The notes: generated from the letters alone by a model not told the origin. DNA of 64,000 bases from Clostridia bacterium (GCA_045541975.1 JAZQKB010000026.1:4593-68592); one strand, 5' to 3'; positions 43,248 through 62,350 are shown, counted from the first letter of the stretch. Numbers and translations are program-made.

Positions 43248-43542
43248 AAGTTACGATTCCTCCACACTAATTACTGTCTTTTGGAAAATTATAACATTGC
43301 TAAAAATCATTGTCAATCCCGAAAATACCAACAAATTACCCCTTTTTTACTTATTTATAAGTAATAAAGAAAAAATGAGTGTTTTAAGATAAGCAAATCA
43401 TTGTAGGAAAATAGGATGATTTTGTTTGTGTTTTCGGGATTGAAAACACCTTTCACAGATGGTATACTACTATTGTGGTATTATGTCATTTTGTGTTCTA
43501 AAAAATAGCCAAATTTAGAAACACTGACAGCGGGGTGAAAAT

Positions 43543-45696
43543 ATGCAAAAAGGGATTTTTTGGATTGGCTCGGAAACGGGAACCAATAAACATCAGATTT
43601 ACCATTTTAAAAAGACAGTGAATTTTGAAAAAAATGTTGGTATGACAGTTAAAATATCTGCTGATAGCCGATATAAGCTTTATATCAACGGGAAATATGT
43701 TGCTGAGGGACCATGCATTGGTACAGAACAATATTATGATGCAGTTGATATCAGCGAGTTTCTGAGAGCTGGAGAAAATGAATTTGAAGCTGTTGTTTTA
43801 TATCTTGGTGGGAATTCCGGTATGTCCTGCATAAGTCGCAAGAACAAGGTAGCTTTTATGCTTGACGGAACGCTTTCTGACGGAAGAAAATTCGGAACAG
43901 ATCAGTCGTGGCAGGTAGCGTTGGATGAAAATGTTGAATTCTATTCAAGTTATGTTCATCCGAACGGATTTTTTTGTGAAAAGTATATAGGTGATACTCC
44001 TTTAGAATGGAAAAACAGCGTTGAACACACATGGGTTACATATAAAATGAATACTTGGGGAGCTTTCGGAAATTATTTTGTAAAAGAGAGAGAAATTCCC
44101 GTTTTATATCCCGATTCTCCTAAAAAAATGGAAATTACGGACAGCGGAGAAAACTATGTTTTGTATGACCTGAAAAACCACAGCGTTGGTTATCCCGAAT
44201 TTGTGTTTAGCGGAACAGGCAAGGCAGAAATAACATACAGCGAAGCATATATGTTTTATGTCGAGGAAAAAAACTGGTACATCAAACAAAAAAGAGATGA
44301 CAGTTCGGGAGAAATTGTTGGCTCAACCGATATTTTGAATATAAATAGTGAAGCTTACCGATACAGACCATTTCTTACAAAAACTGCAAGGTACATAAAG
44401 GTTAAATTTGACAGCGGTGTGAAAATCAAAGAAGCTAACTTTTTAGAATACAGATATCCGCTTAATATAGTAAATAATTTTGAGTGCTCCGATGAGGTTT
44501 ATAACAAAATATGGGAAAACAGCGTGCGCACTTTAAGAAACTGTATGTTTGATACATATGTTGACTGCCCGTATTATGAAATGGAGCAATATACGGAAGA
44601 TACATATCTTGAAATGATGTACACGCTTATGATAAGCGATGATTACAGAATCATTAAAAAAGCAATTACTGATACATGGCAATCCCAGAATTACGAAGGA
44701 ATGATGCTTGCTAGTGCACCAATGTATTATAAACAGATAACACCGACCTTCAATTTCTTCTGGATAATGATGGTAGAAAAATATCTGCTATATAGCGGAG
44801 ATATTGATTTTGTGAAAAGGCTTTTACCGTCTGCATACAGCATTCTTTCGTGGTTTGAAAGCTACATAAACGAAGACGGAGTAGTAGGTGCAACGGATTA
44901 CGGGCGTTTTATTGATTGGGTAGCAGGCTGGAAGAGTGGATTTTATCCTGATAATGCCGAAAAAAATCCGATGTGTATTGTAAGTTTAATGTATCTTTAC
45001 TCAATCAAGGCAGTTGCACAAATGTTTTTAAAAGCAGGTAAAAAACACATTGCCGAGGAGCTTTCGCATCAGTATGAAGTATTAAAGAAAAATATAAATA
45101 AAGTGTTTTTCTCAAAAGAAGAGTTCATGTATACTGACACAACAAAAGGCAATTTTTGCGAGCATAGTCAGATATGGGCGGTTTTATCAGGTGCGATAGA
45201 GGGCGATGATGCTGTTAAGTGTTTAGAGAATGCCAAAAAGGATTATGTTTTGAAATGTTCCTTTTCCTACCGCTTTTTCAGATTCCGTGCCTACGAAAAA
45301 TGCGGAATTTGTATGGATATGGATGAAGCAATGTCAGGCTGGAAGGAAATGCTGTCGCAAGGAGCGACAACATGGTTTGAAAACCCCGGACACGCAAGAA
45401 GCGACTGTCATGGCTGGAGCAGTGTTCCTATTTATGAATTTACTACAAGAATACTTGGTATACAGCCGATTTCAGACGGATTTTATGATATTCTGATTAA
45501 GCCTGAATTTCTAAAGCTTGATTATGCAAAAGGCAGTATATACACAAAACACGGCAAAGTTGATATTTCGTGGAAAAAAGAAAATGGAAAATATACAATA
45601 AGGGTAATATCGCCAAAGGAAATAACAAAGCACATAGTGCTTCTTGACGGAAAAACGACAAAAACAAACGACAGCAATATTACAGTTGAATATTAA
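43543..45696 (+). CDS. alpha-L-rhamnosidase-like glycoside hydrolase (GH78-related)
   Basis: N-terminal rhamnosidase-N pattern (KISADSRYKLYINGKYVAEGP), a VDCPYYEMEQYTEDTY motif that aligns with the GH78 DCPxRE..GWxGD block, and an (alpha/alpha)6 C-terminal half. Confidence 0.65.
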   Translation: MQKGIFWIGSETGTNKHQIYHFKKTVNFEKNVGMTVKISADSRYKLYINGKYVAEGPCIGTEQYYDAVDISEFLRAGENEFEAVVLYLGGNSGMSCISRKNKVAFMLDGTLSDGRKFGTDQSWQVALDENVEFYSSYVHPNGFFCEKYIGDTPLEWKNSVEHTWVTYKMNTWGAFGNYFVKEREIPVLYPDSPKKMEITDSGENYVLYDLKNHSVGYPEFVFSGTGKAEITYSEAYMFYVEEKNWYIKQKRDDSSGEIVGSTDILNINSEAYRYRPFLTKTARYIKVKFDSGVKIKEANFLEYRYPLNIVNNFECSDEVYNKIWENSVRTLRNCMFDTYVDCPYYEMEQYTEDTYLEMMYTLMISDDYRIIKKAITDTWQSQNYEGMMLASAPMYYKQITPTFNFFWIMMVEKYLLYSGDIDFVKRLLPSAYSILSWFESYINEDGVVGATDYGRFIDWVAGWKSGFYPDNAEKNPMCIVSLMYLYSIKAVAQMFLKAGKKHIAEELSHQYEVLKKNINKVFFSKEEFMYTDTTKGNFCEHSQIWAVLSGAIEGDDAVKCLENAKKDYVLKCSFSYRFFRFRAYEKCGICMDMDEAMSGWKEMLSQGATTWFENPGHARSDCHGWSSVPIYEFTTRILGIQPISDGFYDILIKPEFLKLDYAKGSIYTKHGKVDISWKKENGKYTIRVISPKEITKHIVLLDGKTTKTNDSNITVEY

Positions 45697-45721: not shown

Positions 45722-46588
45722 ATGAAATTTGGTACATTATACGCTTATTGGACACATGAATGGAAAGGCGACTATAAGAAATTCGCGAAAAAAGTTTCTG
45801 ACATCGGTTTTGACATTCTGGAAATATCGGCAGGAAATCTGCTTGATATGACTGATAATGAAATTGATGAATTGAAAAGCTTAACGAAAGATTTAGGGAT
45901 AGAAATAACATCAAATATCGGACCTGCGAAAAAATATGATGTTGCTTCAGCTGATAAAAACACAAGGGAAGCAGGAATCAAATTTTTAAGCGACATTATG
46001 AAGAAAATGGACAGACTTGATTCAAGGTCGATAGCTGGTGTTATGTATACATACTGGCCAAACGACTTTTCTGATTTGGATAAAGAAGCTATATGGGCAA
46101 GAGGCGTAGAGAGTGTAAAGCGTCTTGGGAATGTAGCAGAAAATCTTGGTATTGAATTTTGTCTGGAGGTTGTAAACAGATTTGAAACACACATTCTTAA
46201 TACTGCTGAAGAAGGTGTGCAGTACTGTAAGGATGTTGACTGTAAAAGCGTGAAGCTTTTGCTTGATACATTCCATATGAATATAGAAGAAGATAATTTA
46301 TATGATGCGATAATTACAGCAGGTGATTATCTCGGTCATCTTCATGTAGGTGAAGGTAACAGAAAGCTTCCCGGTCAGGGATCCCTTCCATGGAACGAAA
46401 TCGGAAAGGCACTTAACAAAATAGGCTATAAAAAAGGCGTTGTTATGGAGCCGTTTGTAACTATGGGAGGACAGATCGGCTCTGATATAAAGGTGTGGAG
46501 AGATTTATCTTGCGGAGCTAATGAACAGCAAATGGATGAACAGATAAAGAAATCGCTTATCTTCTTAAAAGATGCGTTCAGGGGGTAA
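45722..46588 (+). CDS. ketose 3-epimerase (D-psicose/D-tagatose 3-epimerase family)
   Basis: MKFGTLYAYWTHEWKGDY..GFDILEISA, CLEVVNRFETHILNTAEEGV, LLLDTFHMNIEE, GHLHVGEGNRKLPGQG and VMEPFV..GGQIGSDIKVWRD closely track the Clostridium cellulolyticum D-psicose 3-epimerase sequence as I recall it. Confidence 0.85.
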   Translation: MKFGTLYAYWTHEWKGDYKKFAKKVSDIGFDILEISAGNLLDMTDNEIDELKSLTKDLGIEITSNIGPAKKYDVASADKNTREAGIKFLSDIMKKMDRLDSRSIAGVMYTYWPNDFSDLDKEAIWARGVESVKRLGNVAENLGIEFCLEVVNRFETHILNTAEEGVQYCKDVDCKSVKLLLDTFHMNIEEDNLYDAIITAGDYLGHLHVGEGNRKLPGQGSLPWNEIGKALNKIGYKKGVVMEPFVTMGGQIGSDIKVWRDLSCGANEQQMDEQIKKSLIFLKDAFRG

Positions 46589-46593
46589 AATCC

Positions 46594-47520
46594 ATGATTT
46601 GGACAATGGGAGAACTGATTGTAGAAATTATGCGTGAAAAGGAAGATTTGCCACTTGACAAAGCGGAAAGATTTATCGGACCTTTTCCAAGCGGAGCACC
46701 CGGTATTTTCATTGATACAGTTGCCAAAATGAAACACAAAGCGGGAATTATCAGCGGAGTAGGCAACGATGATTTTGGGAATTGCATTTTAAAAAGGCTT
46801 AAGGAAGATGGCGTTGATTGCAGTAATGTGTTGATAGATGAAACAACTTCAACAGGCTGTGCGTTTGTTACATATTTTTCTGATGGCTCACGAAAATTTA
46901 TCTTTCATATAGGAAACACTCCTGCCGCAAAAGCTGTTATGCCTGACTATGCCAAAATCCCAAATGCAGGTTTTTTCCATATTATGGGCTGTTCTGTAAT
47001 GGCAGAAGAAAAATTCGGCAAAGAGATAGTGAAAACAATGCACGCCTTTAAGGAAAAAGGTGCAAAAATATCCTTTGACCCTAATATAAGGCCTGAACTT
47101 TTGGGGAATGCAGAGCTTATTAAAGAGATTTTAGCAGAAACCTCTGTTTTTCTTCCCGGCGTATCGGAGCTTTTGTCAGTAACGGGAAAAAACACAATAG
47201 AAGAAGCGGTAGAGGAATGCTTTGAAAATGAAAATCTTGAAATTATTGCACTAAAAAACGGTTCCTCCGGCTGCAAAATTTTCACAAGAAATGAAAGCTG
47301 TGAAATAGGTGTATATAAAATTGATGCTAAGGATGCCACTGGTGCAGGAGACTGCTTTGATGCTGCATTTATATGCGGATTGTGTGATGGGAAATCTATA
47401 TCAGACTGTGCTAAACAGGCATCAGCTGCCGCAGCTATCAATACAGCAGCATTCGGTCCTATGGAGGGTAAAATAACACCTGAATGTGTAAATGAAATGA
47501 TAATGAAAGGTGAGATGTAA
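46594..47520 (+). CDS. PfkB-family sugar kinase
   Basis: GGAPGIF-type N-terminal motif and a C-terminal DATGAGDCFDAAF (PfkB signature 2). Confidence 0.85.
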   Translation: MIWTMGELIVEIMREKEDLPLDKAERFIGPFPSGAPGIFIDTVAKMKHKAGIISGVGNDDFGNCILKRLKEDGVDCSNVLIDETTSTGCAFVTYFSDGSRKFIFHIGNTPAAKAVMPDYAKIPNAGFFHIMGCSVMAEEKFGKEIVKTMHAFKEKGAKISFDPNIRPELLGNAELIKEILAETSVFLPGVSELLSVTGKNTIEEAVEECFENENLEIIALKNGSSGCKIFTRNESCEIGVYKIDAKDATGAGDCFDAAFICGLCDGKSISDCAKQASAAAAINTAAFGPMEGKITPECVNEMIMKGEM

Positions 47521-47523
47521 GAA

Positions 47524-48366
47524 ATGTATCTTTCAAGTAAGGAAATAATAGTAAAGGCTTATAAAGAAAAATATGCAGTTCCTGCATTTAATGCCGAAAA
47601 CCTTGAAATGGTACAGGCGATTATAGAGGCTGCAGAAGAAGAGCATTCACCTGTTATAATTCAGACAACACCCCCTACTGTAAAGTATCTGACTGCTGAT
47701 GAAGCGTATGCTATGGTTTATACAATGGCAAAAAAATCAACTGTTCCTGTTGCACTTCATTTAGACCATTGTGCCGACTTTAACGGTGTAATGGCGGTTA
47801 TAAAAGCAGGTTATTCATCAGTAATGTTTGACGGGTCAAAGCTTCCATTTGAGGAAAATATAGCGATTACACGCAAGGTTGTTGAGGTTGCTCGCCCTAT
47901 GGGAATAACAGTGGAAGCAGAGCTTGGAACAGTCGGTGGTAAAGAAGACAATGTGATTGCAAAAGAGGTTATATACACTGATCCGTCTGAGGCAAAGGAA
48001 TTTGTTGAAAAAACAGGCGTTGATATGCTTGCAGTTGCAATCGGAACAGCTCACGGATTTTATAAAGGTGAACCGAAACTTGATTTTGACAGAATAGAAA
48101 AGATTAGTAAATTAACAGATATTCCGCTCGTTCTTCACGGCGGTTCGGGAGTTCCCGAGGAAAGTGTGAAAAAGGCTATTTCGCTGGGTATGGCAAAGGT
48201 TAATTTTGCAACAGAGCTTCGTGCAGCTGCAACAAAAGGTGTGCGTAAGATTCTTCAGGACGAAAGCGTTATAGACCCGAAAAAATATATGGCAGAAGCA
48301 AGGCAGGAGGTTATTAAGCTTTGCAAAGAAAAAATAAAGATGTGCGGTTCTTGTAATAAGGCATAG
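47524..48366 (+). CDS. class II ketose-bisphosphate aldolase (fructose/tagatose-bisphosphate aldolase family)
   Basis: YAVPAFN, LHLDH, VEAELG, IGTAHG and LVLHGGSG motifs. Confidence 0.85.
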   Translation: MYLSSKEIIVKAYKEKYAVPAFNAENLEMVQAIIEAAEEEHSPVIIQTTPPTVKYLTADEAYAMVYTMAKKSTVPVALHLDHCADFNGVMAVIKAGYSSVMFDGSKLPFEENIAITRKVVEVARPMGITVEAELGTVGGKEDNVIAKEVIYTDPSEAKEFVEKTGVDMLAVAIGTAHGFYKGEPKLDFDRIEKISKLTDIPLVLHGGSGVPEESVKKAISLGMAKVNFATELRAAATKGVRKILQDESVIDPKKYMAEARQEVIKLCKEKIKMCGSCNKA

Positions 48367-48378
48367 GAGGCAAAGAAA

Positions 48379-49356
48379 ATGAACAGAAAATATTCAGTTT
48401 TTATTGATCATGTTGGGACTTTTTGCGATAGATATTGCAATGCGTACTCAGAAAAACCTTTTACAATATCAGAAAAATTTGACCGAGTTGCAAGTATCCC
48501 TCTTTTATCTGCGGTTGATCTTAATATGACAGCAGATTATAATATGGCAAAGGATGAAATTAAAGCAAGCTTAAAAAGAACAGGTCTTAAAGTTAATTCA
48601 GTTATGATGGATTCCACAGCAGACAGAATTTTTAAGCAGGGAACTTTTTCAAGTCTGGATAAGGATATCAGAAAAAGAGCTGTAGATGATGCAAAAAAAG
48701 CAATGGATTTTGCAGAGGAATTAGGATGTCCTACATTTGCGATATGGCCTGGACAGGATGGATACGATTATATGTTTCAGGCGGACTACATAAAAGAGAG
48801 AATGCTTTTTGCAGAATGCTTAAAAGAAATATCCGAATATAAACCGAATATGAATATTGCTTTGGAGTATAAACCCAAAGAGCCTCGTATTCACAGCTAT
48901 GTGAATACGATGGAAGGAACTCTGCTTATGATTGAAAAAGCAAAACTTTCCAACGTGGGAATAGCAATGGATTACGGTCATTCATACTTCGGTGGCGAAA
49001 ATCCTGCGGAAGCAGTTGCGATTTTAAATATGTACGGCGGAAAGCTGTTTGCCATACATATGAATGACAATAACGGCTCATGGGACGACGATATGATTGC
49101 AGGAAGCGTGAATACACTTCCGTACCTTGAGTTTATTTATTGGCTTAGAAAAACAGGCTATAATGGATATATCACCTTTGACCAGTTCCCATACAGAGAG
49201 GAATCAAAAGAAGCAGTAAATGAAAGTGCATTGTGGTTTGATTATCTTGAAAGTCTTATTGATAGGGCAGATATGGATGAGATTGCCTCTGTTCTTGCGT
49301 TAAAAGATGGTAACGCTTCAAGCAGACTTATGAGAAAATTGATTCAGGGTTCATGA
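48379..49356 (+). CDS. xylose isomerase-like TIM-barrel sugar isomerase/epimerase
   Basis: 325 aa with IWPGQDG, LEYKPKEPR, DYGH and HMNDN motifs, reminiscent of the xylose/rhamnose isomerase-like superfamily. Confidence 0.65.
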   Translation: MNRKYSVFIDHVGTFCDRYCNAYSEKPFTISEKFDRVASIPLLSAVDLNMTADYNMAKDEIKASLKRTGLKVNSVMMDSTADRIFKQGTFSSLDKDIRKRAVDDAKKAMDFAEELGCPTFAIWPGQDGYDYMFQADYIKERMLFAECLKEISEYKPNMNIALEYKPKEPRIHSYVNTMEGTLLMIEKAKLSNVGIAMDYGHSYFGGENPAEAVAILNMYGGKLFAIHMNDNNGSWDDDMIAGSVNTLPYLEFIYWLRKTGYNGYITFDQFPYREESKEAVNESALWFDYLESLIDRADMDEIASVLALKDGNASSRLMRKLIQGS

Positions 49357-50108
49357 TGTTGAAAAAAGATTATCATTTACACCCGAATTTATTAAAAAAG
49401 CCTGAACAAGCGGATTTGTTCATACAGCGTGCGATAGAACTCGGCTTTCATGAAATATGCTTTACTGACCATATGCCCTTTACCGTAACAGGTGATGAGC
49501 ACGACCGTATTCCTTTCGGAAAAGTAAGAAAATACTGCGATAAAGTAAGAGAAAAGGCAGAAGAATACAAGGATAGAATTATCATAAGAACAGGAATAGA
49601 AATTGATTATCACCCAAGCTGTATAAAAGAAATCGAACAGGTTTTGTCAGAAGGTGATTTTGATTATATCATCGGCTCATCACATCTGAATATAGCAGGT
49701 TTCAATATTCCAATGGAGAACACCACACGCACAGAATTTGCAGAACAGGTTCTGAAAAATTACCTTTTAGCCGCAAGATCAGGTTATTTTGATACAATAT
49801 CGCATCTTGATGTGTATAGATGGGTATTTTCTGAATATCCCCTTCAAGATGATAGCTATACCTATCAGTCAAATATAGAAATAATAAATAAGATTTTTGA
49901 AGAGCTTGAAAAAAGAAGGCTAAATCTTGAAATAAATACAGCACCGTTATATAAAGGCTTTGATAATCTTGGTGTTTATCCCGAAAAAGATATTATTAAA
50001 ATCAGCCGACAGTATGAATTGAGTTATGTTTACGGCTCTGATGCACATACGGCTGATAAGGTAGGATTTGGTTATGATTTTTATGAAAAATTGTGTTGTG
50101 AGGAATGA
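49353..50108 (+). CDS. PHP-domain phosphatase (histidinol-phosphatase HisJ-like)
   Basis: DYHLHPN, FTDH, GIEIDY, SSH, SHLD and GSDAH metal-ligand motifs. It overlaps its neighbours by 4 nt on both sides. Confidence 0.75.
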   Translation: MMLKKDYHLHPNLLKKPEQADLFIQRAIELGFHEICFTDHMPFTVTGDEHDRIPFGKVRKYCDKVREKAEEYKDRIIIRTGIEIDYHPSCIKEIEQVLSEGDFDYIIGSSHLNIAGFNIPMENTTRTEFAEQVLKNYLLAARSGYFDTISHLDVYRWVFSEYPLQDDSYTYQSNIEIINKIFEELEKRRLNLEINTAPLYKGFDNLGVYPEKDIIKISRQYELSYVYGSDAHTADKVGFGYDFYEKLCCEE

Positions 50109-51664
50109 TTATGGATTTTGAAAAAATGACTTTAAAAGAAAAAATATACCAAACCTTTATTGTAGATAAGCATGAAATAGAACAAGAAAAAAGTGTTGAA
50201 GCTTTTTTTAGGAAATATCCTGTTGGAGGTCTTTATTTTTCCAATTCGTATGTTGCTGATTTAGGTGCATTGATGGCTGATGGTGCAGTTTCCGAAAGTG
50301 ATTTTCTGGAGAAATGCAGAAGCTTTTCAAAGTATCCGCTTTTTGTATGTGTTGATATGATAACACTTCCAAATGCTCCTGACATTGAAATTTCTGCCAT
50401 AGCAGCCTGTAAGGATGAAAATATGCATTATGCCTATGGAAAGTCAGTTGGATTATCATGTAATTACTTTGATGTTGACTGCATTTTAGGTCCATGCATT
50501 GATATGAAAATGGAAAGATGCGCTGATTTTAATTCAATGTGTACCACCGATGATGCTGTGTTTAACGGGAAAATGTATTCCCAGGTTGTAAGAGGTATTC
50601 AGGACTGTGGTGTCGCTGCAACAGCAAAGCACTTTCCGGGACAGGGAACTTATCATGTTAATTTCCATTTAGGACCGGGAAAAAATATATTCAGCTTTGA
50701 TAAATGGATGGATACATACGGCTACAGCTATAAAAAAATGTTTGAGAAAGATTGTATGTGTGTTATGACTTCGCATCTCACACTGCCTTCCTACACAAAC
50801 GAATCAGAAGAGGGGTATCCTCCTATAGCAACTTTTTCAAAAAAAATAACAGTTGACCTTTTGAAAAAGAAGCTGGGATTTAAGGGAGCAGTTATAACAG
50901 ATGCCCTTGTAATGGGAGGTATGGCTTGTGGAAATCAGGCTCTGGAAGCAGCACAGGCATTTAAGTGTGGCGCTGACTTTCTGCTTTGGCCTCCTATTGA
51001 AACAGCCGATATAATAGAAGAAAAAATATTAAGCGGCGAAATACCGATGTCAAGACTTGATGATGCATTGGAACGAATCAAAAGAGTCAGAAAATTTGTT
51101 GCTGAAAACAAAAAAACAATACCGTGTGATGCAGAAAAATATGTTATGGAAACTGTTCATAAAGCATACGATGGCGGAGTTGAGCTTATAAGAAACGAAA
51201 ACAGTGTGCTTCCATTAAAGAAAGAAGATAAAATTCTTGTTATAGGAAATGCACCTGACGGTTATAGAATGGATGCTGCAAAGAAATTTTATGAGTCATT
51301 GGTTGACAAAGGCTTTGATGTCGATTTTCAGAAATATTTGTTGACCTGTTTTCAAAAAGAGATAAATGAAATATGCGAGCCTTATGATAAAATTATTTTT
51401 GTGTTGAATCATCCTTATGTTGTTGGAGAATTTCCAAATTGTGCTTCAACAACCTGGGCATCTCATATTGTAGATCAAAATAAAAAGTGCTATTTAAATT
51501 TTTCTTCGCCATTTTTGGTTGACGATTATTATCCTTATGAATTATGCCTGATAAATGCAAATTGCGGAATAAATAAATATTCTGTTGATGCAGTTATAGA
51601 AAAAATGACAGGAAAATCAGAATTTATCGGGAAAGCCCATTTGAATTTTAATGAATTGCGTTAA
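50105..51664 (+). CDS. glycoside hydrolase family 3 protein
   Basis: The KHFPGQG motif and a VITDAL/MGG block of the GH3 N-domain, 519 aa. Confidence 0.75.
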   Translation: MIMDFEKMTLKEKIYQTFIVDKHEIEQEKSVEAFFRKYPVGGLYFSNSYVADLGALMADGAVSESDFLEKCRSFSKYPLFVCVDMITLPNAPDIEISAIAACKDENMHYAYGKSVGLSCNYFDVDCILGPCIDMKMERCADFNSMCTTDDAVFNGKMYSQVVRGIQDCGVAATAKHFPGQGTYHVNFHLGPGKNIFSFDKWMDTYGYSYKKMFEKDCMCVMTSHLTLPSYTNESEEGYPPIATFSKKITVDLLKKKLGFKGAVITDALVMGGMACGNQALEAAQAFKCGADFLLWPPIETADIIEEKILSGEIPMSRLDDALERIKRVRKFVAENKKTIPCDAEKYVMETVHKAYDGGVELIRNENSVLPLKKEDKILVIGNAPDGYRMDAAKKFYESLVDKGFDVDFQKYLLTCFQKEINEICEPYDKIIFVLNHPYVVGEFPNCASTTWASHIVDQNKKCYLNFSSPFLVDDYYPYELCLINANCGINKYSVDAVIEKMTGKSEFIGKAHLNFNELR

Positions 51665-51696: not shown

Positions 51697-52803
51697 ATGA
51701 ATAAGCAAGATTGGTTTTACGATAGAAAATGGGGTATGTTTAATCACTATATAGGGTATAGCCCCAAGGGAGACATAAGAGCAGGTTGGAAAGAATACAA
51801 GGATTATAATGAAAAAATAAATAGGTTTGATGTTGATCAATATGCAAAAATTGCTCATGAAGTAAATGCAGGATATGTTTTTTTTACAATTATGCAGGGC
51901 GACAGATTTATGTGTGCACCGAATGATACTTTTAATCAGATAACGGGTTATAAGCCTGGTGAGGCTTGTTCGGAAAGAGATCTTATAGCAGATCTTATAA
52001 AAGCACTGGATAAATATAATATTCCTTTATTTTTATATTTCACGGGTGATGGCCCTTATATAGATGAATATGCAGGCCGTAAATTTAATTATCATAACCG
52101 TGAAAAAGAACTTGTTAATCCTGAATTTATAGAAAAGTGGACAGCGGTTTTAAAAGAATATGCAGTGCGTTACGGAGAAAAAGTTCATGGCTGGTGGCTT
52201 GATGGAACATTTGATTATCTTGGGTATGTTGATCATGATGATGACTATCTGAAGCCATATGCGGATGCAATAAAGGCAGGAAATCCTGATGCACTCATAG
52301 CATTCAATAACGGTGTGTTAAAGCTTGACTTTAATAATCCAATGTACGAAAAATACTATGACGGCGAAAAGCATCCACTCTCAAGGATAAGAAAGCTTGA
52401 GAAATATGCACTGGAAGGCGATGAAACTGCAAAAAACTTTTTTGGTAAAGTTGCAGGGATAAACACGAGATATTCAAAACATGAGAATTATACAGCAGGA
52501 GAGACTAATGAGTTCACAGAATATCCCAAAGGAAGATTTGTTGACGGTTTACAATGGCATATATTATCATTTTTAGGCGCAAATGAAAACTATAATAAAT
52601 TGTGGGGAAATTGTGCTTGGAACTCCATGGGTTGTAAATACAGTGCTGAATATATGTATCATTATGTAAAAAAATGTAATGAGCTTGGGGGAGTTGTTTC
52701 TATTGACACGTTTTTATATGATGATGGTCATATAGATTGGGGACAGTATGAAATACTAAAAAAACTCGGAGAATTAAGAAAAAGAAATGAGGTAACAAAA
52801 TGA
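51697..52803 (+). CDS. GH29-like (alpha-L-fucosidase-like) TIM-barrel protein, divergent
   Basis: RKWGMFNHY, AGYVFFT, DLIADLIKALDKYNIPLFLYF and VHGWWLDG parallel the GH29 blocks. However, the usual HHDGF block is replaced by MQGDRF. Confidence 0.45.
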   Translation: MNKQDWFYDRKWGMFNHYIGYSPKGDIRAGWKEYKDYNEKINRFDVDQYAKIAHEVNAGYVFFTIMQGDRFMCAPNDTFNQITGYKPGEACSERDLIADLIKALDKYNIPLFLYFTGDGPYIDEYAGRKFNYHNREKELVNPEFIEKWTAVLKEYAVRYGEKVHGWWLDGTFDYLGYVDHDDDYLKPYADAIKAGNPDALIAFNNGVLKLDFNNPMYEKYYDGEKHPLSRIRKLEKYALEGDETAKNFFGKVAGINTRYSKHENYTAGETNEFTEYPKGRFVDGLQWHILSFLGANENYNKLWGNCAWNSMGCKYSAEYMYHYVKKCNELGGVVSIDTFLYDDGHIDWGQYEILKKLGELRKRNEVTK

Positions 52804-53732
52804 ACAGCGGATCACTTACAGTAGGAAAAAAACCTTTTTGGAAAAGGTTAAGAAGGGATTTATCATTCAATAGATTTGCATATTTTTTAATAATTCCCGC
52901 AGTTGTGCTTACAATTATTTTTCATTATTTTCCTCTTTGGGGAGTAAAACTTGCGTTTCAGCAATATAATATTTATTCGCCTGAAACAAGTCCGTGGTGC
53001 GGATTGGATAATTTTATCACAATATTTAAAACCCCGGGATTGGTGCAGGCAATAATAAATACACTGTTGTGTAGCGTTATTGGTCTTGTTACAGGATTTC
53101 CACTTGAGATTATGTTTGCACTTGCATTAAATGAAGTAAGAAATACTGGATTTAAAAAGGTCACTCAGACAATATCATATCTACCACACTTCCTTTCAAC
53201 AATGGCTGTTGTTGGATTGGCAACTACAATGTTTTCAATGTATGGCCCTATCAATGATATTATTGATTTTTTGGGCGGAGAAAGAACAATGTTTCTTGCA
53301 CAGCAGAATATGTTTTTGCCTATCATTACAATTGTTTGTCTTTGGAAAAATACAGGTTGGAATTCAATCATATATTTATCTGCTATTTCCGGTGTTGATC
53401 CGACCTTATATGAAGCTGTAGCTATTGACGGTGGCGGAAGATGGCGACAGATATGGCATGTTACACTTCCTTGTATCAGACCAACCATAATCATACTTCT
53501 TATCTATAAATTTGGTGGATTGTTCGGAAGTACATTTGAGATTGTATATGGTTTCCAGAATCCTTTTGTTAATTTTGAAAATATAAGTACGATTATTTAT
53601 AAGCGTGGTATTGAGGGCGGACAGTACGGAATTTCTACTGCCATGGGGCTTTTCCAAGGTGTTATTGGATTTATTCTTCTTTATATTGCTAATTTCACTG
53701 CAAAAAAAGTTTCTGAAACAAGCTTGTTCTAA
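52800..53732 (+). CDS. carbohydrate ABC transporter permease (LplB-like)
   Basis: Six-TM MalF-type permease with an EAVAIDGGGRWRQIWHVTLP (EAA-loop) motif. Confidence 0.85.
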   Translation: MNSGSLTVGKKPFWKRLRRDLSFNRFAYFLIIPAVVLTIIFHYFPLWGVKLAFQQYNIYSPETSPWCGLDNFITIFKTPGLVQAIINTLLCSVIGLVTGFPLEIMFALALNEVRNTGFKKVTQTISYLPHFLSTMAVVGLATTMFSMYGPINDIIDFLGGERTMFLAQQNMFLPIITIVCLWKNTGWNSIIYLSAISGVDPTLYEAVAIDGGGRWRQIWHVTLPCIRPTIIILLIYKFGGLFGSTFEIVYGFQNPFVNFENISTIIYKRGIEGGQYGISTAMGLFQGVIGFILLYIANFTAKKVSETSLF

Positions 53733-53752
53733 CTTGGAAGGGAGGCAGAAAG

Positions 53753-54658
53753 ATGAAAAATAATGATGGCATCGGCTACAGAATATTTATAGTATTCAAT
53801 TATATCATTTTAGCTTTGGTATCCTTTACTATGCTTTATCCTTATTTGAATGTTCTTGCTAAGGCGTTCAATGAAGGTGCGGATACAGCCTTGGGAGGAA
53901 TTACATTCTGGCCAAGAGAATGGACTCTTGAAAACTTTACGGCTATATTATCTGAAGATAGTTTTTTCAGAGCATTGGGCGTTACAGTAGCAAGAGTTGT
54001 TCTGGCAACGCTTGGATCGTTGCTGGTACAGTTTGCCGCTGCATATACTATGGCAAAGAAGAATCTTATGTTAAAGACAGCTCTGACATTTTTCTTTATG
54101 ATTCCAGGATATATTGCAGTTGGAGTGATTCCTACTTATGTGCTCTATTCTGATTTAGGACTTTTAAATTCATTCTGGGTATATGTTTTACCGGGACTAT
54201 TCAGTTTTTATAATATGATAATCATAAGAACATATATGCAGTCCAATATACCTGACGCTTTATATGAAGCGGCATATCTTGACGGGGCGACGGATGTAAC
54301 TATATTTTTCAAAATAGTGTTACCTTTAACACTTCCTGTCATGGCAACAATTGCACTTTGGACAATGGTTGGGCAATGGAACGACTGGACAACTACGCTT
54401 TATTATATTACAACGCCAAAGCTACATACCCTCCAATTTAAAATGATGCAGGTTGTTAAGGAGTCTGAATATATTGAAAAAATGCGTGCGGCACTTCTTG
54501 CACAGGGAGCAAATGTTGAGGATATGGAGGTCAATATAACTTCTGACTCACTTATTTCAGCACAGGTTATAATAACTACTGTTCCGATTATAGCTGTTTA
54601 TCCTTTCCTGCAGAAATATTTTGTTAAAGGTGTTACACTTGGAAGTATTAAAGGCTAA
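53753..54658 (+). CDS. carbohydrate ABC transporter permease (LplC-like)
   Basis: EAAYLDGATDVTIFFKIVLPL EAA-loop, 301 aa. Confidence 0.85.
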   Translation: MKNNDGIGYRIFIVFNYIILALVSFTMLYPYLNVLAKAFNEGADTALGGITFWPREWTLENFTAILSEDSFFRALGVTVARVVLATLGSLLVQFAAAYTMAKKNLMLKTALTFFFMIPGYIAVGVIPTYVLYSDLGLLNSFWVYVLPGLFSFYNMIIIRTYMQSNIPDALYEAAYLDGATDVTIFFKIVLPLTLPVMATIALWTMVGQWNDWTTTLYYITTPKLHTLQFKMMQVVKESEYIEKMRAALLAQGANVEDMEVNITSDSLISAQVIITTVPIIAVYPFLQKYFVKGVTLGSIKG

Positions 54659-54682
54659 GAAAGTTTCTTGAGGAGGACAAAA

Positions 54683-56923
54683 ATGGGAAACTTAATCGAA
54701 TTGAAATGCGACTTACTTGTTGCAGGTGGGGGAATTGCAGGAATTTGTGCCGCAGTTGCCGCTGCAAGAAAAGGAGTAAGTGTTGTTCTTATAAATGACA
54801 GATCAGTTCTTGGAGGAAATGCATCAAGTGAAATACAGGTGCCGATATCAGGTGCTTGTCATCATGAGTTTAATGCAGCAATTTATGTTAAAGAAACAGG
54901 AATTGTTGATGAATTAAGGCAGAGATCTATTGATCTGAAATCAGGAGGAGGTTACGCTTCACACGGTTTTATAGCGACAGACGCTGTATATCTGGATGCT
55001 GTTTATAATGAAGAAAATATAAATCTTATTTTAAACACAGTTGTTACAGGATGTCTGACGGAAAACGGAAGAATTATTTGTGCTTATGCGAAGCATAGCG
55101 TGAACGGAAACGATTATCATATTTATGCTGACAACTATATTGATTCAACAGGTAACGGTATGCTTGCTTTTGAGGCAGGTGCGGAATACAGAATAGGAAG
55201 AGAAGCAAAAAGTGAATTTAATGAATCAGAAGCACCTGAAGTGGCAGATAAATGTACTATGGGAAATACTATTTTATTTGATGCCGAGGAAGCCGACCGA
55301 GAGGTTGTTTACAAGGCTCCCGATTTCGCGATGGATATTACAAAAACAGATTTTTTTAAGCATCTTCATATAAAAGAAAATTTCCGTGCTATCAACACAG
55401 GCGGAGCACACTGGTCGTATGAATACGGTGGTCAGGTCGATATATTAAACGACCATAACGACATTGAAAAGGAGCTCAGAAGCTTTGCATACGGCGTGTG
55501 GGATTATGTTAAAAACAGCGGAGAATTTTCTGATGTGAAGAATAAACGCTTGAGTAAGATGTGCGTTAAAGCAGGAACGAGAGAATCAAGAAGAATTGTT
55601 GGAGATTATATTTTAACCGAAAATGATATTGAAAACAAAGTGAATTTTGAGGATTCTGTAGCTTATGGCGGATGGCCTATGGATGTTCACGCACCCAAAG
55701 GGATGTATGATTCCATACCTGCTTCAAATTTCATTCCTGTCACAGGTACATATAACATTCCTTTCAGATGCCTTTATTCAAAAAATATAGAAAATCTGAT
55801 GATGGCAGGAAGAGATATAAGCGTAACACATATAGCATTAGGTTCAACACGAGTTATAGCAACTTGTGCAACAACAGGTCAGGCAGTGGGAACGGCGGCA
55901 TATATCTCAAAAAAATACGGAGCAACACCCCGTGAAATTTACAAAAATCACATTGAAGAACTGAAATATACATTACTTGCGGATGACCAGCCGATACTTC
56001 ATATAAAAGAGCAGGGAATGAATGCAGAGGTAAGTGCAACAAGCGAGGCGGTATATGAAAATGTGGCATTTAATGAATATATGGCATTAGACCGCGATTA
56101 TGCACTTTCGCTTATGCTTGACAGCAAAAAGCTGAATAGCTTTAAGATTCATCTAAAGGCTCAGAATAAGACAAAATTAAGCTGTAAAATATTTACAGGA
56201 ATACATCCTGAAACATATCTTCCTGAAATTCGTCTTAAAAAGATTGAAACAGATATAGAAGCAGGTTTTGAAGGATGGAAAGAGCTTAAAATTGATTGCG
56301 ATGTTGGAGCAGACAGCAAGATATGTGTTGTTTTTGAAAAAAATGAAGATATATCCATTGCAACCGGAAAAGCGAGAGTAATGGGAGCAATCACTCACAG
56401 AATGCATAAGGAAATAACTGACGATGGCAGAGACCACGACAGTATCCCTCTTGATAAGGATAAAACGGGCTATTGCTATTTTGACCACAGATATGAAAAA
56501 GGAAAAAATATTCTTTTTTGCGATATAAAACCAAAACAAACAGTTTTTGCAGCAAAGAATGTAATAAATGGCTACAGACGCCCCTACGGAACACAGAATT
56601 TGTGGAAAGCGTCTGACAATAATGAGCAAAAGCTTATACTTACATTAAACGAAGAAATAAATTCAGATGGTTTTTATTTTGTGTTTGACAATGAACTTCA
56701 TCTTGACCGTTTTTGGAAAATGCCTGCTGTTCTGACTTCGGATTTTATTGTTGAGATTGAAGATAAAAACGGAGTAAGAGAGTATTTCGTGAAAGACAAT
56801 ATTCAGCGAGTGTATAAGCTTAATGACAAATTTAAGGGTGTTAAAAAAATTCAGCTTACCATAAAGAAAACCTATGGAAAAGAAGCGGGAGTTTATGCAA
56901 TACAGCCCATTATAAATGATTAA
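54683..56923 (+). CDS. FAD-dependent oxidoreductase (large, PUL-associated type)
   Basis: N-terminal CDLLVAGGGIAGICAAVAAARKG dinucleotide-binding motif. The ATG at 54683 follows gaggagg. About 746 aa with a long C-terminal extension. Confidence 0.7.
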   Translation: MGNLIELKCDLLVAGGGIAGICAAVAAARKGVSVVLINDRSVLGGNASSEIQVPISGACHHEFNAAIYVKETGIVDELRQRSIDLKSGGGYASHGFIATDAVYLDAVYNEENINLILNTVVTGCLTENGRIICAYAKHSVNGNDYHIYADNYIDSTGNGMLAFEAGAEYRIGREAKSEFNESEAPEVADKCTMGNTILFDAEEADREVVYKAPDFAMDITKTDFFKHLHIKENFRAINTGGAHWSYEYGGQVDILNDHNDIEKELRSFAYGVWDYVKNSGEFSDVKNKRLSKMCVKAGTRESRRIVGDYILTENDIENKVNFEDSVAYGGWPMDVHAPKGMYDSIPASNFIPVTGTYNIPFRCLYSKNIENLMMAGRDISVTHIALGSTRVIATCATTGQAVGTAAYISKKYGATPREIYKNHIEELKYTLLADDQPILHIKEQGMNAEVSATSEAVYENVAFNEYMALDRDYALSLMLDSKKLNSFKIHLKAQNKTKLSCKIFTGIHPETYLPEIRLKKIETDIEAGFEGWKELKIDCDVGADSKICVVFEKNEDISIATGKARVMGAITHRMHKEITDDGRDHDSIPLDKDKTGYCYFDHRYEKGKNILFCDIKPKQTVFAAKNVINGYRRPYGTQNLWKASDNNEQKLILTLNEEINSDGFYFVFDNELHLDRFWKMPAVLTSDFIVEIEDKNGVREYFVKDNIQRVYKLNDKFKGVKKIQLTIKKTYGKEAGVYAIQPIIND

Positions 56924-62340: not shown

Positions 62341-62350
62341 GGAGGAAATT

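What the first reader, a model, noticed from the sequence alone, without database searches (positions are those of the whole stretch)
45722..50108. Free-ketose 3-epimerase embedded in a kinase/aldolase/isomerase/PHP-phosphatase cassette: a possible physiological pathway for a rare sugar
The 45722 product tracks the biochemically characterised clostridial D-psicose (D-allulose) 3-epimerases almost block for block (sequence from memory). As far as I know, the physiological role of these enzymes remains unclear. Here the gene is the first of five tightly packed genes with 3-12 nt gaps or 4-nt overlaps. The others are a PfkB kinase, a class II ketose-bisphosphate aldolase, a second xylose-isomerase-like TIM-barrel enzyme and a HisJ-like PHP phosphatase. 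The order suggests a pathway: ketose epimerisation or isomerisation, then phosphorylation, then aldol cleavage, with a phosphatase step. It does not match the canonical rhamnose, fucose, tagatose or allulose-6-P routes that I know. Its position inside a glycan island implies that the substrate is released from the polymer.
Basis: partly seen in the sequence, partly recalled or inferred. Interest (0 to 1): 0.58.

Follow-up and report, generated by a model that had tools for sequence, protein, structure and literature searches.

The report
Rare-sugar breakdown cassette, partly known
Five tightly packed genes (sugar isomerase, 3-epimerase, kinase, aldolase, phosphatase) form a rare, horizontally acquired cassette in gut and rumen Clostridia; its kinase-aldolase core matches the proven E. 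coli tagatose pathway, but the sugar it really feeds on is still unknown.

Summary
At 45722-50108 lie five co-directional genes with 3-12 nt gaps or 4-nt overlaps: a ketose 3-epimerase (EPI), a PfkB kinase (KIN), a class II aldolase (ALD), a short xylose-isomerase-like enzyme (TIM2) and a HisJ-family PHP phosphatase.

- **Conservation.** The same five genes in the same order recur at 69-87% identity in two other assemblies. Subsets recur in many more. EPI-KIN is the constant pair, followed by ALD or by a GatZ-like enzyme.
- **Match to known pathways.** KIN's closest characterised relative is the validated E. coli B2/Nissle D-tagatose kinase. ALD is 42-45% identical to tagatose-bisphosphate aldolases. 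The KIN+GatZ-like variant copies the S. meliloti tagatose route.
- **Best reading (about 0.45).** Aldose to 3R-ketose (TIM2), to 3S-ketose (EPI), to 6-phosphate (KIN), to 1,6-bisphosphate (host PFK), to triose phosphates (ALD). The substrate would be a D-ketohexose.
- **Rival (about 0.3).** An L- or 6-deoxy sugar cleaved as a 1-phosphate. GH78 rhamnosidases flank the cassette in three arrangements, and a TIM2 relative sits in a rhaB/rhaD-like cluster.
- **Unexplained.** The phosphatase recurs, once replaced by a HAD enzyme in the same slot, but has no assigned role.

The scan's first readers noted similar triads in three other genomes. Verdict: a new variant of a known kind.

The parts
43440..43468 (+). 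promoter-like site (TTGAAA-17-TATACT with TG) ahead of the GH78-like gene; probable start of the long co-directional unit
   Evidence: No convincing + strand terminator lies between 43543 and 60000; the count equals chance.
43543..45696 (+). cytoplasmic GH78-type alpha-L-rhamnosidase relative (717 aa, no signal peptide), 25 nt upstream of EPI
   Evidence: Pfam Bac_rhamnosid6H and Bac_rhamnosid_C. PDB 2okx rhamnosidase B, 160 bits. A 52% homologue follows TIM2 in L106. N-terminus read.
45722..46588 (+). EPI: free-ketose 3-epimerase of the D-psicose/D-tagatose 3-epimerase family
   Evidence: NCBIfam NF051856, 408 bits against 300. PDB 3VNI, 324 bits, with all metal and catalytic residues kept. 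Pocket residues are L6 W14 I66 V107 W112.
46594..47520 (+). KIN: PfkB sugar kinase, tagatose-kinase-like
   Evidence: PF00294. NCBIfam tagatose kinase is the best model, 268 bits, below its cut-off of 420. The best E. coli and PDB match is the validated tagatose kinase (38% identity, 182 bits). The TGAGD motif is kept.
47524..48366 (+). ALD: class II (zinc) ketose-bisphosphate aldolase
   Evidence: PF01116, 373 bits; TIGR01859, 379 against 343. It is 44-45% identical to E. coli KbaY and the tag-cluster aldolase. Motifs LHLDH, GTAHG and LVLHGGSG are kept. DPKK stands where bisphosphate aldolases have DPR.
48379..49356 (+). TIM2: short xylose-isomerase-like aldose-ketose isomerase of an uncharacterised clade
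   Evidence: PF01261. PDB 3ktc, 167 bits; xylose isomerases, about 80 bits. The xylose-isomerase two-metal motifs are kept (EYKPKEPR, DYGH, WDDD, FDQ).
49353..50108 (+). PHP: HisJ-family PHP phosphatase, overlapping TIM2 and GH3 by 4 nt each
   Evidence: PF02811; TIGR01856, 133 against 90; the HisJ equivalog is not reached (101 against 133). Relatives of 69-79% identity follow the cassette in L135, L136 and L258.
50105..51664 (+). cytoplasmic GH3 family glycosidase
   Evidence: PF00933; no signal peptide.
51697..52803 (+). cytoplasmic GH29-like (alpha-L-fucosidase-like) protein
   Evidence: PF01120, E 7e-11.
52800..54658 (+). two oligosaccharide-type (MalF/MalG-like) ABC permeases (52800-53732 and 53753-54658)
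   Evidence: PF00528; NCBIfam UgpA/MalF/MalG-like.
54668..56923 (+). cytoplasmic FAD-dependent oxidoreductase (PF12831), 751 aa
   Evidence: Two homologues of about 40% identity lie beside an EPI relative in L055.
56968..58827 (+). 619-aa lipoprotein, probable solute-binding protein of the ABC system
   Evidence: Signal peptide plus Cys; no Pfam family.
58834..64000 (+). two secreted GH141-like beta-helix proteins; the second runs off the window
   Evidence: PF13229 and PF21231; signal peptide.

Best explanation
The five genes are an accessory, horizontally acquired catabolic cassette. It takes a rare sugar from free aldose or ketose to triose phosphates.

Proposed steps:
- TIM2, a two-metal xylose-isomerase-type enzyme, converts an aldose into a 3R ketose.
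- EPI inverts C3 of the free ketose to give the 3S epimer (D-psicose to D-fructose, D-sorbose to D-tagatose).
- KIN, a tagatose-kinase-type PfkB enzyme, phosphorylates C6.
- One of the genome's four phosphofructokinases adds the 1-phosphate.
- ALD, a tagatose/fructose-bisphosphate-type class II aldolase, cleaves the product to DHAP and glyceraldehyde 3-phosphate.

What is shown: the family memberships, the intact catalytic motifs, the conserved synteny, and homology of KIN and ALD to the validated E. coli tagatose enzymes.

What is inferred: the regiochemistry of KIN, the use of host PFK, the identity of the sugar (a D-ketohexose such as sorbose, tagatose or psicose, and an aldose such as D-gulose or D-allose), and the link of TIM2 to EPI.

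The PHP phosphatase belongs to the unit but has no assigned step. My guess is that it removes dead-end sugar phosphates or frees a sugar 1-phosphate.
For: **Conserved unit**
- The cassette recurs as AraC|EPI-KIN-ALD-TIM2-PHP in L135 and as EPI-KIN-ALD-TIM2-PHP in L258. Subsets occur in L081, L106, L136 and L141.

**KIN is a tagatose-kinase type**
- Its best NCBIfam model is tagatose kinase.
- Its best E. coli and PDB relative is the validated tagatose kinase of the B2/Nissle cluster.
- In 83 KIN loci, neighbours include EPI (32), ALD (18), GatZ/KbaZ-like (12), Zn-dependent polyol dehydrogenase (11) and monosaccharide ABC genes (18). These are the architectures of the S. meliloti and E. coli tagatose routes (PMC9720028).
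- ALD-linked and GatZ-linked kinases are interleaved in the KIN tree.
- EPI pocket residues are identical in both contexts. The same ketose is therefore probably handled in both.

**ALD looks like a bisphosphate aldolase**
- It is 42-45% identical to GatY, KbaY and the tag-cluster aldolase.
- It keeps the zinc and catalytic motifs.
- It keeps basic residues (DPKK) at the position of E. coli FbaA Arg331, the C6-phosphate binder. YdjI, which acts on monophosphates, has none there. The role of Arg331 is from established knowledge.

**Other support**
- G000 has four PF00365 phosphofructokinase genes.
- TIM2 keeps the xylose-isomerase metal ligands.
- L-rhamnose-isomerase-type enzymes make 3R ketoses, including D-psicose from D-allose and D-sorbose from D-gulose (PMC11485043). 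This explains why a 3-epimerase would precede a 3S-specific aldolase.
Against: - No natural source of D-sorbose, D-tagatose, D-psicose, D-gulose or D-allose is known in the kinds of glycan these islands appear to degrade.
- The cassette is flanked by GH78 rhamnosidases in three different arrangements (WIN, L106, L136).
- A 57% TIM2 relative lies in a rhaD/rhaB-like cluster. This points to an L-rhamnose-like sugar.
- KIN is below the tagatose-kinase cut-off (268 against 420) and only 38% identical to the validated enzyme.
- ALD passes the FBP-aldolase model and falls short of the TBP-aldolase models.
- No PFK gene lies in any fetched locus.
- The phosphatase has no role in this scheme, yet it is conserved, and a HAD enzyme occupies the same slot in L141.
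- The window's transporter is of the oligosaccharide type, unlike the monosaccharide ABC systems of the validated clusters.
Confidence: 0.45

Rival explanations
1. This is a route for an L- or 6-deoxy-hexose released from rhamnose-, fucose- or L-galactose-bearing glycans. TIM2 isomerises an L-rhamnose-like aldose (L-rhamnose, 6-deoxy-L-talose, L-mannose, L-talose) to a 3R ketose. EPI flips C3 to 3S. KIN phosphorylates C1. ALD cleaves the ketose 1-phosphate to DHAP plus L-lactaldehyde or L-glyceraldehyde. No PFK is needed.
For: - A GH78-type rhamnosidase lies directly before EPI (window), directly after TIM2 (L106), and twice after PHP (L136).
- TIM2 relatives lie next to canonical GH78 genes (L111, L112), a GH140 apiosidase-like gene (L107) and a GH127-like gene (L108).
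- In L108 a 57% TIM2 relative heads a cluster with rhamnulose-1-phosphate aldolase (321 bits against 170) and a rhamnulokinase-like gene (491 against 528).
- G000 carries a second EPI paralogue beside a FucI-like isomerase and a GH141-like gene. The FucI-like+EPI pair recurs in L062.
- G000 has the pdu operon, a rhamnulokinase and a FucA-like aldolase, but only a 46-aa relic of RhaA.
- PF01116 aldolases are 3S-specific, so a 3-epimerase is exactly what a 3R ketose would need.
- E. coli YdjH/YdjI is a precedent for a PfkB kinase paired with a class II aldolase acting on a ketose 1-phosphate.
Against: - KIN orthologues are interleaved with GatZ-linked and polyol-dehydrogenase-linked ones, and the EPI pocket is identical in those contexts. 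This argues for a sugar with a 6-hydroxyl.
- The ALD clade keeps Lys-Lys at the distal phosphate site.
- Seven of ten genomes with the triad also have a rhamnulokinase-like gene. All five other TIM2 genomes tested have an intact RhaA. G132 has a complete canonical rha locus besides L108. The cassette is therefore not simply the rhamnose pathway.
- The phosphatase has no role here either.
Confidence: 0.3
2. The five genes are not one pathway. EPI-KIN-ALD is a ketohexose module. TIM2 (an isomerase for L-rhamnose, D-apiose or another glycan sugar) and PHP serve other steps of the island and are merely co-transcribed.
For: - TIM2 and PHP are missing from all 80 genome loci found with EPI.
- TIM2 occurs without the triad in 16 of the 18 genomes (of 399 scored) that have a TIM2 match.
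- PHP relatives of 64% identity or less sit in unrelated contexts.
- TIM2's best structural relative, 3ktc, is from Pectobacterium, a genus with a D-apiose isomerase gene (PMC13001218; the identity of 3ktc with ApsI is unverified).
Against: - L081 is a stand-alone AraC|EPI-KIN-ALD-TIM2 operon in a housekeeping context. L135 is AraC|EPI-KIN-ALD-TIM2-PHP.
- At least nine PHP relatives lie on the same contigs as EPI relatives.
- An unrelated HAD phosphatase takes the slot after ALD in L141.
- Apulose has no C3 hydrogen and cannot be an EPI substrate. A lone apiose isomerase without a kinase and transketolase would be useless.
Confidence: 0.15
3. The cassette runs in the synthetic direction. DHAP plus an aldehyde gives a ketose 1-phosphate (ALD), then a free ketose (PHP), then its epimer (EPI), then an aldose (TIM2). 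This would make a rare sugar or remove a reactive aldehyde.
For: This is the only scheme that gives the phosphatase an obvious step. It mirrors the well-known one-pot enzymatic synthesis of rare sugars.
Against: The cassette has an AraC-type catabolic regulator in its relatives and sits among hydrolases and an uptake system. The kinase has no role. No glycosyltransferase or nucleotide-sugar genes are adjacent.
Confidence: 0.05

Closest known systems
E. coli Nissle 1917 / B2 phylogroup D-tagatose cluster (Ha et al., iScience 2022, PMC9720028)
   Same: It pairs a PfkB tagatose kinase with a stand-alone class II tagatose-bisphosphate aldolase, and host PfkA supplies the second phosphorylation. 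The window's KIN has this kinase as its best E. coli match (38% identity). ALD is 44% identical to its aldolase.
   Different: The E. coli cluster has a monosaccharide ABC importer, a DeoR regulator and an aldose 1-epimerase. It has no 3-epimerase, no xylose-isomerase-like enzyme and no phosphatase. The window's set lies among glycosidases with an oligosaccharide-type ABC system.
S. meliloti TagABC-TagD-TagE / A. tumefaciens altritol-galactitol route (tagatose kinase plus GatZ-like tagatose-6-phosphate 4-epimerase)
   Same: KIN orthologues of 45-60% identity sit beside GatZ/KbaZ-like genes in 12 loci, and beside Zn-dependent polyol dehydrogenases in 11 loci.
   Different: The window has an aldolase instead of the GatZ-like epimerase, and adds EPI, TIM2 and PHP.
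Characterised D-psicose/D-tagatose 3-epimerases (C. cellulolyticum 3VNI, A. tumefaciens 2HK0, P. cichorii 2QUL) and the PsiR-regulated rhizobial operon
   Same: EPI is above the NCBIfam equivalog cut-off, is roughly 55% identical to the C. cellulolyticum enzyme (by eye from the alignment), and keeps all catalytic and metal residues. The rhizobial operon is induced by D-psicose (PMC7445875).
   Different: Position 6 is Leu instead of Tyr/Phe throughout this clade. The rhizobial loci fetched here lack a KIN homologue.
E. coli YdjH/YdjI (PfkB kinase plus class II aldolase acting on a ketose 1-phosphate) and B. subtilis IolC/IolJ
   Same: The same two protein families work in tandem. YdjI is 42% identical to ALD.
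   Different: YdjI lacks the basic DPR/DPK motif that ALD keeps. YdjH is only about 25% identical to KIN.
Xylose-isomerase-type L-rhamnose isomerases and PDB 3ktc (Pectobacterium 'xylose isomerase', function not published)
   Same: TIM2 shares the two-metal xylose-isomerase motifs and is most similar to 3ktc (167 bits). A 57% relative heads a rhaD/rhaB-like cluster.
   Different: TIM2 is about 100 residues shorter than xylose isomerases and P. stutzeri L-rhamnose isomerase. It scores far below the NCBIfam rhamnose-isomerase models (63 against 531). It has His at the position of xylose-isomerase Asp245.

Membership tests
Free-ketose 3-epimerase (D-psicose/D-tagatose 3-epimerase) | Scores above the curated equivalog model | tested here: met
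   NF051856, 408 bits against a cut-off of 300.
Free-ketose 3-epimerase (D-psicose/D-tagatose 3-epimerase) | Metal ligands and catalytic pair Glu150, Asp183, His209, Glu244; O1-O3 binders Glu156, His186, Arg215 (C. cellulolyticum numbering) | tested here: met
   All are conserved in the phmmer alignment to 3VNI/3VNK and across the clade.
Free-ketose 3-epimerase (D-psicose/D-tagatose 3-epimerase) | Epimerises free D-psicose/D-fructose or D-tagatose/D-sorbose | not testable with these tools
   Needs an enzyme assay.
Tagatose kinase (PfkB family) | Scores above the curated equivalog model | tested here: not met
   NF049991 is the best model, but at 268 bits against a cut-off of 420.
Tagatose kinase (PfkB family) | Closest characterised relative is a validated tagatose kinase; orthologues sit with tagatose-6-phosphate-processing genes | tested here: met
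   38% identity and 182 bits to the E. coli SE15 orthologue of ECOLIN_RS18675. GatZ-like or ALD neighbours in 12 and 18 of 83 loci.
Tagatose kinase (PfkB family) | Phosphorylates C6 of D-tagatose | not testable with these tools
   Needs an assay with product analysis.
Class II ketose-1,6-bisphosphate aldolase | Zinc ligands and catalytic Asp (LHLDH, GTAHG, LVLHGGSG) | tested here: met
   Alignment with E. coli KbaY, GatY, the tag-cluster aldolase and FbaA.
Class II ketose-1,6-bisphosphate aldolase | Arg that binds the distal (C6) phosphate (E. coli FbaA Arg331, motif DPR) | tested here: inconclusive
   Replaced by Lys-Lys (DPKK) in 15 of the 16 KIN-linked ALD sequences aligned, one of which has DPR. 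It remains basic. YdjI has no basic residue here.
Class II ketose-1,6-bisphosphate aldolase | Curated models: FBP aldolase (TIGR01859) or TBP aldolase (NF009374, TIGR01858) | tested here: inconclusive
   TIGR01859, 379 against 343, is met. GatY subfamily, 365 against 383, and TIGR01858, 327 against 444, are not met.
E. coli Nissle-type D-tagatose pathway as a whole | Kinase plus aldolase plus monosaccharide ABC importer, with a host phosphofructokinase | tested here: inconclusive
   Kinase and aldolase homologues are present, and four PF00365 genes are in G000. The importer is of the oligosaccharide type, and there is no aldose 1-epimerase.
Xylose-isomerase-type aldose-ketose isomerase | Two-metal ligand set and catalytic Lys (Glu181, Lys183, Glu217, His220, Asp245, Asp255, Asp257, Asp287) | tested here: met
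   Six are identical. Glu217 is Asp and Asp245 is His.
L-rhamnose isomerase | Scores above the curated models (TIGR02635, TIGR02629, PF06134) | tested here: not met
   63 against 531 and 39 against 647 bits. The only evidence is context (L108).
Histidinol-phosphatase HisJ | Equivalog score and a histidine-biosynthesis context | tested here: not met
   The subfamily model TIGR01856 is met (133 against 90). The equivalog NF005996 is not (101 against 133). The context is sugar catabolism. A second HisJ-family gene lies at 22351-23169.
D-apiose transketolase pathway (ApsI, AplK, AptAB) | FGGY apulose kinase and split transketolase next to the isomerase | tested here: not met
   The E. coli SE15 cluster shows that AplK is an FGGY enzyme and that AptAB are transketolase halves. 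The window cassette contains neither gene type.

The most novel reading that the evidence does not exclude
The cassette is an undescribed catabolic route in which a ketose 3-epimerase has its true physiological job. That job is to convert the 3R ketose, made by an L-rhamnose-isomerase-like enzyme from a glycan-derived L- or 6-deoxy-hexose, into the 3S epimer. A fructose/tagatose-type class II aldolase, rather than a RhaD/FucA-type one, can then cleave it. A dedicated phosphatase step would be shared by two unrelated enzyme families.
Probability: 0.28. Interest if true: 0.75.

Novelty: new variant of a known kind. Interest (0 to 1): 0.5.

Why it matters
Ketose 3-epimerases are the workhorses of industrial allulose production, yet their natural role in anaerobes is poorly documented. 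This cassette gives a concrete and testable setting, with a fixed epimerase-kinase pair joined to either an aldolase or a GatZ-like epimerase.

In gut and rumen Clostridia the pair also comes with an uncharacterised short xylose-isomerase clade and a recruited phosphatase, all inside glycan-degradation islands. Finding the substrate would do three things:
- assign functions to three uncharacterised enzyme clades (TIM2, including PDB 3ktc relatives; the PHP clade; the KIN-linked DPKK aldolases);
- show whether gut bacteria can ferment allulose, tagatose or sorbose sweeteners by a free-sugar route distinct from AlsE;
- possibly reveal an unrecognised sugar in dietary or microbial glycans.

Tried and rejected
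- **TIM2 as a replacement for a lost RhaA.** G000 has only a 46-aa RhaA relic. However, all five other TIM2-bearing genomes tested keep an intact RhaA. G132 has a full canonical rha locus besides the TIM2 cluster. Rejected as a general explanation.
- **The cassette as the D-apiose pathway.** The apulose kinase is an FGGY enzyme and the cleavage enzyme is a transketolase. Apulose has no C3 hydrogen for EPI and is not an aldol product of DHAP. Rejected.
- **A PFK gene regularly next to the cassette.** None was found in any fetched EPI or KIN locus. One occurs upstream on the P0012 contig.
- **Separate clades for ALD-linked and GatZ-linked kinases or epimerases.** This would have allowed different substrates. 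The tree and the pocket residues do not separate them.
- **A cassette-type AraC regulator in the window.** Only a generic HTH match to the truncated AraC remnant at about 39.0-39.3 kb was found.
- **Searches that gave nothing useful.** Literature searches for 3KTC, apulose, apiose isomerase and Arg331. The Carter et al. 2018 apiose paper is not held. The protein atlas gave only generic names for TIM2. An earlier-findings look-up by TIM2 sequence found nothing.
- **Fructoselysine (FrlC/FrlD) and myo-inositol (IolC/IolJ/IolE) readings.** The models score far below their cut-offs, and the defining partner genes are absent.

Full report
**1. What is there**

The window holds, on the + strand, five genes:
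- EPI, 45722-46588
- KIN, 46594-47520
- ALD, 47524-48366
- TIM2, 48379-49356
- PHP, 49353-50108

The gaps are 5, 3 and 12 nt, followed by two 4-nt overlaps. The second overlap joins PHP to a GH3 gene. EPI starts at the ATG at 45722, behind a Shine-Dalgarno sequence and 25 nt after the stop of a 717-aa GH78-type gene.

The only good promoter-like site lies at 43440-43468, ahead of that GH78 gene. No + strand terminator stands out down to 60 kb. The five genes are therefore probably the inner part of one long unit:

GH78-like, EPI, KIN, ALD, TIM2, PHP, GH3, GH29-like, two ABC permeases, FAD oxidoreductase, lipoprotein binding protein, two secreted GH141-like proteins.

The GH78-like, GH3, GH29-like and FAD proteins have no signal peptide. 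The 619-aa protein is a lipoprotein and the first beta-helix protein has a signal peptide. This fits outside cleavage, uptake of oligosaccharides, and breakdown in the cytoplasm.

**2. The five proteins**

*EPI.* It scores 408 bits on the NCBIfam D-psicose 3-epimerase equivalog, against a cut-off of 300. It aligns over its whole length with the C. cellulolyticum enzyme (3VNI/3VNK, 324 bits). It keeps Glu150, Asp183, His209, Glu244, Glu156, His186 and Arg215. Position 6 is Leu in the whole clade, where the C. cellulolyticum enzyme has Tyr.

*KIN.* It is a PfkB kinase. Its best curated model is tagatose kinase, but below the cut-off (268 against 420). Its best solved relative is 3iq0 (182 bits).

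*ALD.* It is a class II aldolase with intact LHLDH, GTAHG and LVLHGGSG motifs. It passes the FBP-aldolase model (379 against 343) and just misses the GatY subfamily model (365 against 383).

*TIM2.* It is most like the uncharacterised Pectobacterium structure 3ktc (167 bits), then class I xylose isomerases (about 80 bits). It keeps the two-metal motifs: EYKPKEPR, DYGH, WDDD and FDQ. Two ligands are swapped, Glu217 to Asp and Asp245 to His. It is therefore an aldose-ketose isomerase and not a second epimerase.

*PHP.* It is a HisJ-family PHP phosphatase (TIGR01856, 133 against 90). It is below the HisJ equivalog. A second HisJ-family gene lies elsewhere in the window, at 22351-23169.

**3. How far the set is conserved**

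*EPI-centred scan.* Among 80 genome loci found with an EPI alignment, EPI-KIN-ALD occurs in seven and EPI-KIN in two more. None has TIM2 or PHP.

*Closest relatives.* These tell more:

| Locus | Arrangement |
|---|---|
| L135 | AraC, then EPI-KIN-ALD-TIM2-PHP (84, 72, 87, 83, 79% identity) |
| L258 | EPI-KIN-ALD(frameshifted)-TIM2-PHP inside a beta-helix/GH32N/GH3/GDSL/GH43 island |
| L081 | stand-alone AraC, then EPI-KIN-ALD-TIM2 |
| L106 | AraC, then EPI-KIN-ALD-TIM2-GH78-like |
| L136 | EPI-KIN-ALD-PHP-GH78-GH78 |
| L141 | EPI-KIN-ALD-HAD phosphatase |

*PHP clade.* It is small, with 94 proteins at E below 1e-20. At least nine of them lie on the same contigs as EPI relatives. At 64% identity or less, PHP sits in unrelated contexts.

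*Rarity.* A KIN orthologue was found in 2 of 399 sampled genomes of the class, and in none of 15 other genomes of the family. TIM2 was found in none of the congeners searched. Horizontal acquisition is an inference from these points.

**4. What the kinase and aldolase correspond to**

A scan centred on KIN gave 83 loci. Neighbours were:
- EPI, 32 loci
- LacI/binding protein, 26
- ALD, 18
- monosaccharide ABC ATPase and permease, 18
- GatZ/KbaZ-like, 12
- Zn-dependent alcohol dehydrogenase, 11
- GFO/IDH/MocA oxidoreductase, 11
- TIM2, 5
- PHP, 3

Two validated pathways have these architectures (PMC9720028):
- S. meliloti uses TagD (tagatose kinase) and TagE (tagatose-6-phosphate epimerase).
- E. 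coli Nissle uses a tagatose kinase and a stand-alone class II tagatose-bisphosphate aldolase. PfkA is required for the step from tagatose 6-phosphate to the bisphosphate.

In E. coli SE15 the best match to KIN is exactly that kinase (38% identity, 182 bits). It lies in the cluster aldose-1-epimerase, kinase, ABC, aldolase. ALD is 44% identical to that aldolase, 44% to KbaY, 42% to GatY, 42% to YdjI and 30% to FbaA. G000 has four PFK-family genes and a separate housekeeping FBP aldolase.

Two further points argue that the window's enzymes act on the same kind of sugar as the GatZ-linked ones:
- In the KIN tree, ALD-, GatZ-, dehydrogenase- and ABC-linked members are interleaved on short branches (quick tree, SH-aLRT support only).
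- The EPI pocket residues L6, W14, I66, V107 and W112 are identical in the GH/ALD-linked and the GatZ-linked epimerases.

A third point concerns the aldolase. E. coli FbaA Arg331 is known from mutagenesis to bind the C6 phosphate. Counting back from the C-terminus places it in the DPR motif. At that position:
- KbaY, GatY, the tag-cluster aldolase, FbaA and the G000 housekeeping enzyme all have DPR.
- Nearly the whole KIN-linked ALD clade has DPKK (15 of the 16 aligned; L206 has DPR).
- YdjI, which acts on monophosphates, has nothing basic.

This favours a substrate with a distal anionic group.

**5. Evidence that points the other way**

*Rhamnosidase neighbours.* The GH78-like protein is a real rhamnosidase relative (2okx, 160 bits). 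Rhamnosidases touch the cassette in three different arrangements: before EPI, after TIM2, and after PHP.

*Other hydrolase-like genes next to the triad.* These are a GH127-like gene inserted between EPI and KIN (L001, L002, L139, L140), a dockerin-DUF4838 protein (L005, L020, L022), a nucleoside-hydrolase-like protein (L135, L147) and GH88 (L001).

*Where TIM2 relatives sit.*
- Beside a GH140 apiosidase-like gene (L107, 72% identity).
- Beside canonical GH78 genes (L111, L112).
- In L108 (57% identity), at the head of a cluster with rhamnulose-1-phosphate aldolase, a deacetylase, a rhamnulokinase-like gene and a GH127-like gene.

*G000 itself.* It has a second EPI paralogue (41% identity, also above the equivalog cut-off). 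That paralogue lies beside a PocR/AraC regulator, a FucI-like isomerase and a GH141-like gene. The FucI-like+EPI pair recurs in L062.

*The stereochemical logic.* L-rhamnose-isomerase-type enzymes act on aldoses with the L-rhamnose configuration at C2 and C3. They therefore make 3R ketoses. Substrates include L-rhamnose, L-mannose, L-lyxose, D-allose, D-gulose and L-talose (PMC11485043). PF01116 aldolases make and cleave 3S ketoses. A 3-epimerase between them is thus logical for either a D- or an L-sugar.

*Why the cassette is not simply the rhamnose pathway.*
- Seven of ten triad genomes have a rhamnulokinase-like gene.
- All five other TIM2 genomes tested have an intact RhaA.
- G132 has a canonical rhaA-rhaB-rhaD locus as well as L108.
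- G000 is the exception. It has rhamnulokinase, a FucA-like aldolase and the pdu operon, but only a 46-aa RhaA relic.

**6. The phosphatase**

No scheme I could write gives it a necessary step. It does belong to the unit:
- It overlaps its neighbours.
- Its close relatives always lie at or near the 3' end of the cassette.
- In L141 an unrelated HAD hydrolase of the beta-phosphoglucomutase family stands in the same place.

Possible roles, none tested, are removal of dead-end phosphates made by a promiscuous kinase (psicose or sorbose 6-phosphate), or release of a free aldose from a sugar 1-phosphate made by a phosphorylase. GH130/GH32-like and GH65C-bearing genes lie just upstream on the other strand.

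**7. Verdict**

- The isomerise, epimerise, phosphorylate, cleave reading is well supported by synteny.
- Two of the five genes match a validated pathway. The claim of no known match is therefore too strong.
- The substrate is open.

I put 0.45 on a D-ketohexose route through the 6-phosphate and 1,6-bisphosphate. I put 0.3 on an L- or 6-deoxy-sugar route through a 1-phosphate. I put 0.15 on co-located but separate modules, and 0.05 on a synthetic direction.

First readers of this scan noted similar triads in three other genomes. I saw the same architectures in my own loci.

Noticed in passing
G000 contig C37:45724-53300 (locus L130:7237-17330): A second island lies right after a serine recombinase. 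It holds an EPI paralogue (41% identity, also above the D-psicose 3-epimerase cut-off), a divergent PocR/AraC regulator, a FucI-like isomerase (463 aa, weakly sulfoquinovose-isomerase-like) and a 1250-aa GH141-like protein.
   Followed up: partly
G000 contig C33:15390-15521 (locus L248:7391-7522): A 46-aa relic of the C-terminus of canonical L-rhamnose isomerase RhaA lies between a GDSL esterase and inorganic pyrophosphatase. G000 still has a rhamnulokinase equivalog directly after its pdu microcompartment operon (C37:191716-193185). RhaA is intact, truncated or not found in different congeners.
   Followed up: partly
L136:4027-6056: An RpiB/LacAB-family isomerase and a fused ROK kinase::ribulose-phosphate 3-epimerase lie just upstream of EPI-KIN-ALD-PHP. 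The fusion resembles allose kinase plus allulose-6-phosphate 3-epimerase. This would be a phosphorylated D-allose route next to the free-ketose cassette.
   Followed up: no
L258:8111-8999: The aldolase gene of an otherwise complete five-gene cassette is split into 195-aa and 58-aa pieces. This is a frameshift or an assembly error.
   Followed up: no
window 54668-56923; L055:6424-9749; G000 C33 (L248:813-2210): PF12831 FAD-dependent oxidoreductases recur in these glycan islands. Two copies (about 40% identity) lie beside an EPI relative, ABC permeases and a rhamnulokinase-like gene in L055. Their role is unknown.
   Followed up: no
window 22351-23169 (-): A second HisJ-family PHP phosphatase (272 aa, 25% identical to the cassette PHP) lies in the higher-GC part of the window. 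It is a candidate for the housekeeping histidinol phosphatase.
   Followed up: no
contig of P0002 (JGI 3300029305; no DNA available): In the closest EPI relative (86%), four small ORFs separate TIM2 from a 316-aa PHP. Corrinoid methyltransferase genes (URO-D-like plus B12-binding) lie a few kb downstream.
   Followed up: no
window 32000-64000: GC content drops from about 0.41-0.46 to 0.35-0.39 from about 32 kb to the window end. This covers the conjugative-element genes and the whole glycan island, and fits acquisition as one block.
   Followed up: partly
G000 whole genome: This 1.69-Mb genome carries four PF01116 class II aldolases and four PFK-family genes, an unusually large set for its size.
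   Followed up: partly
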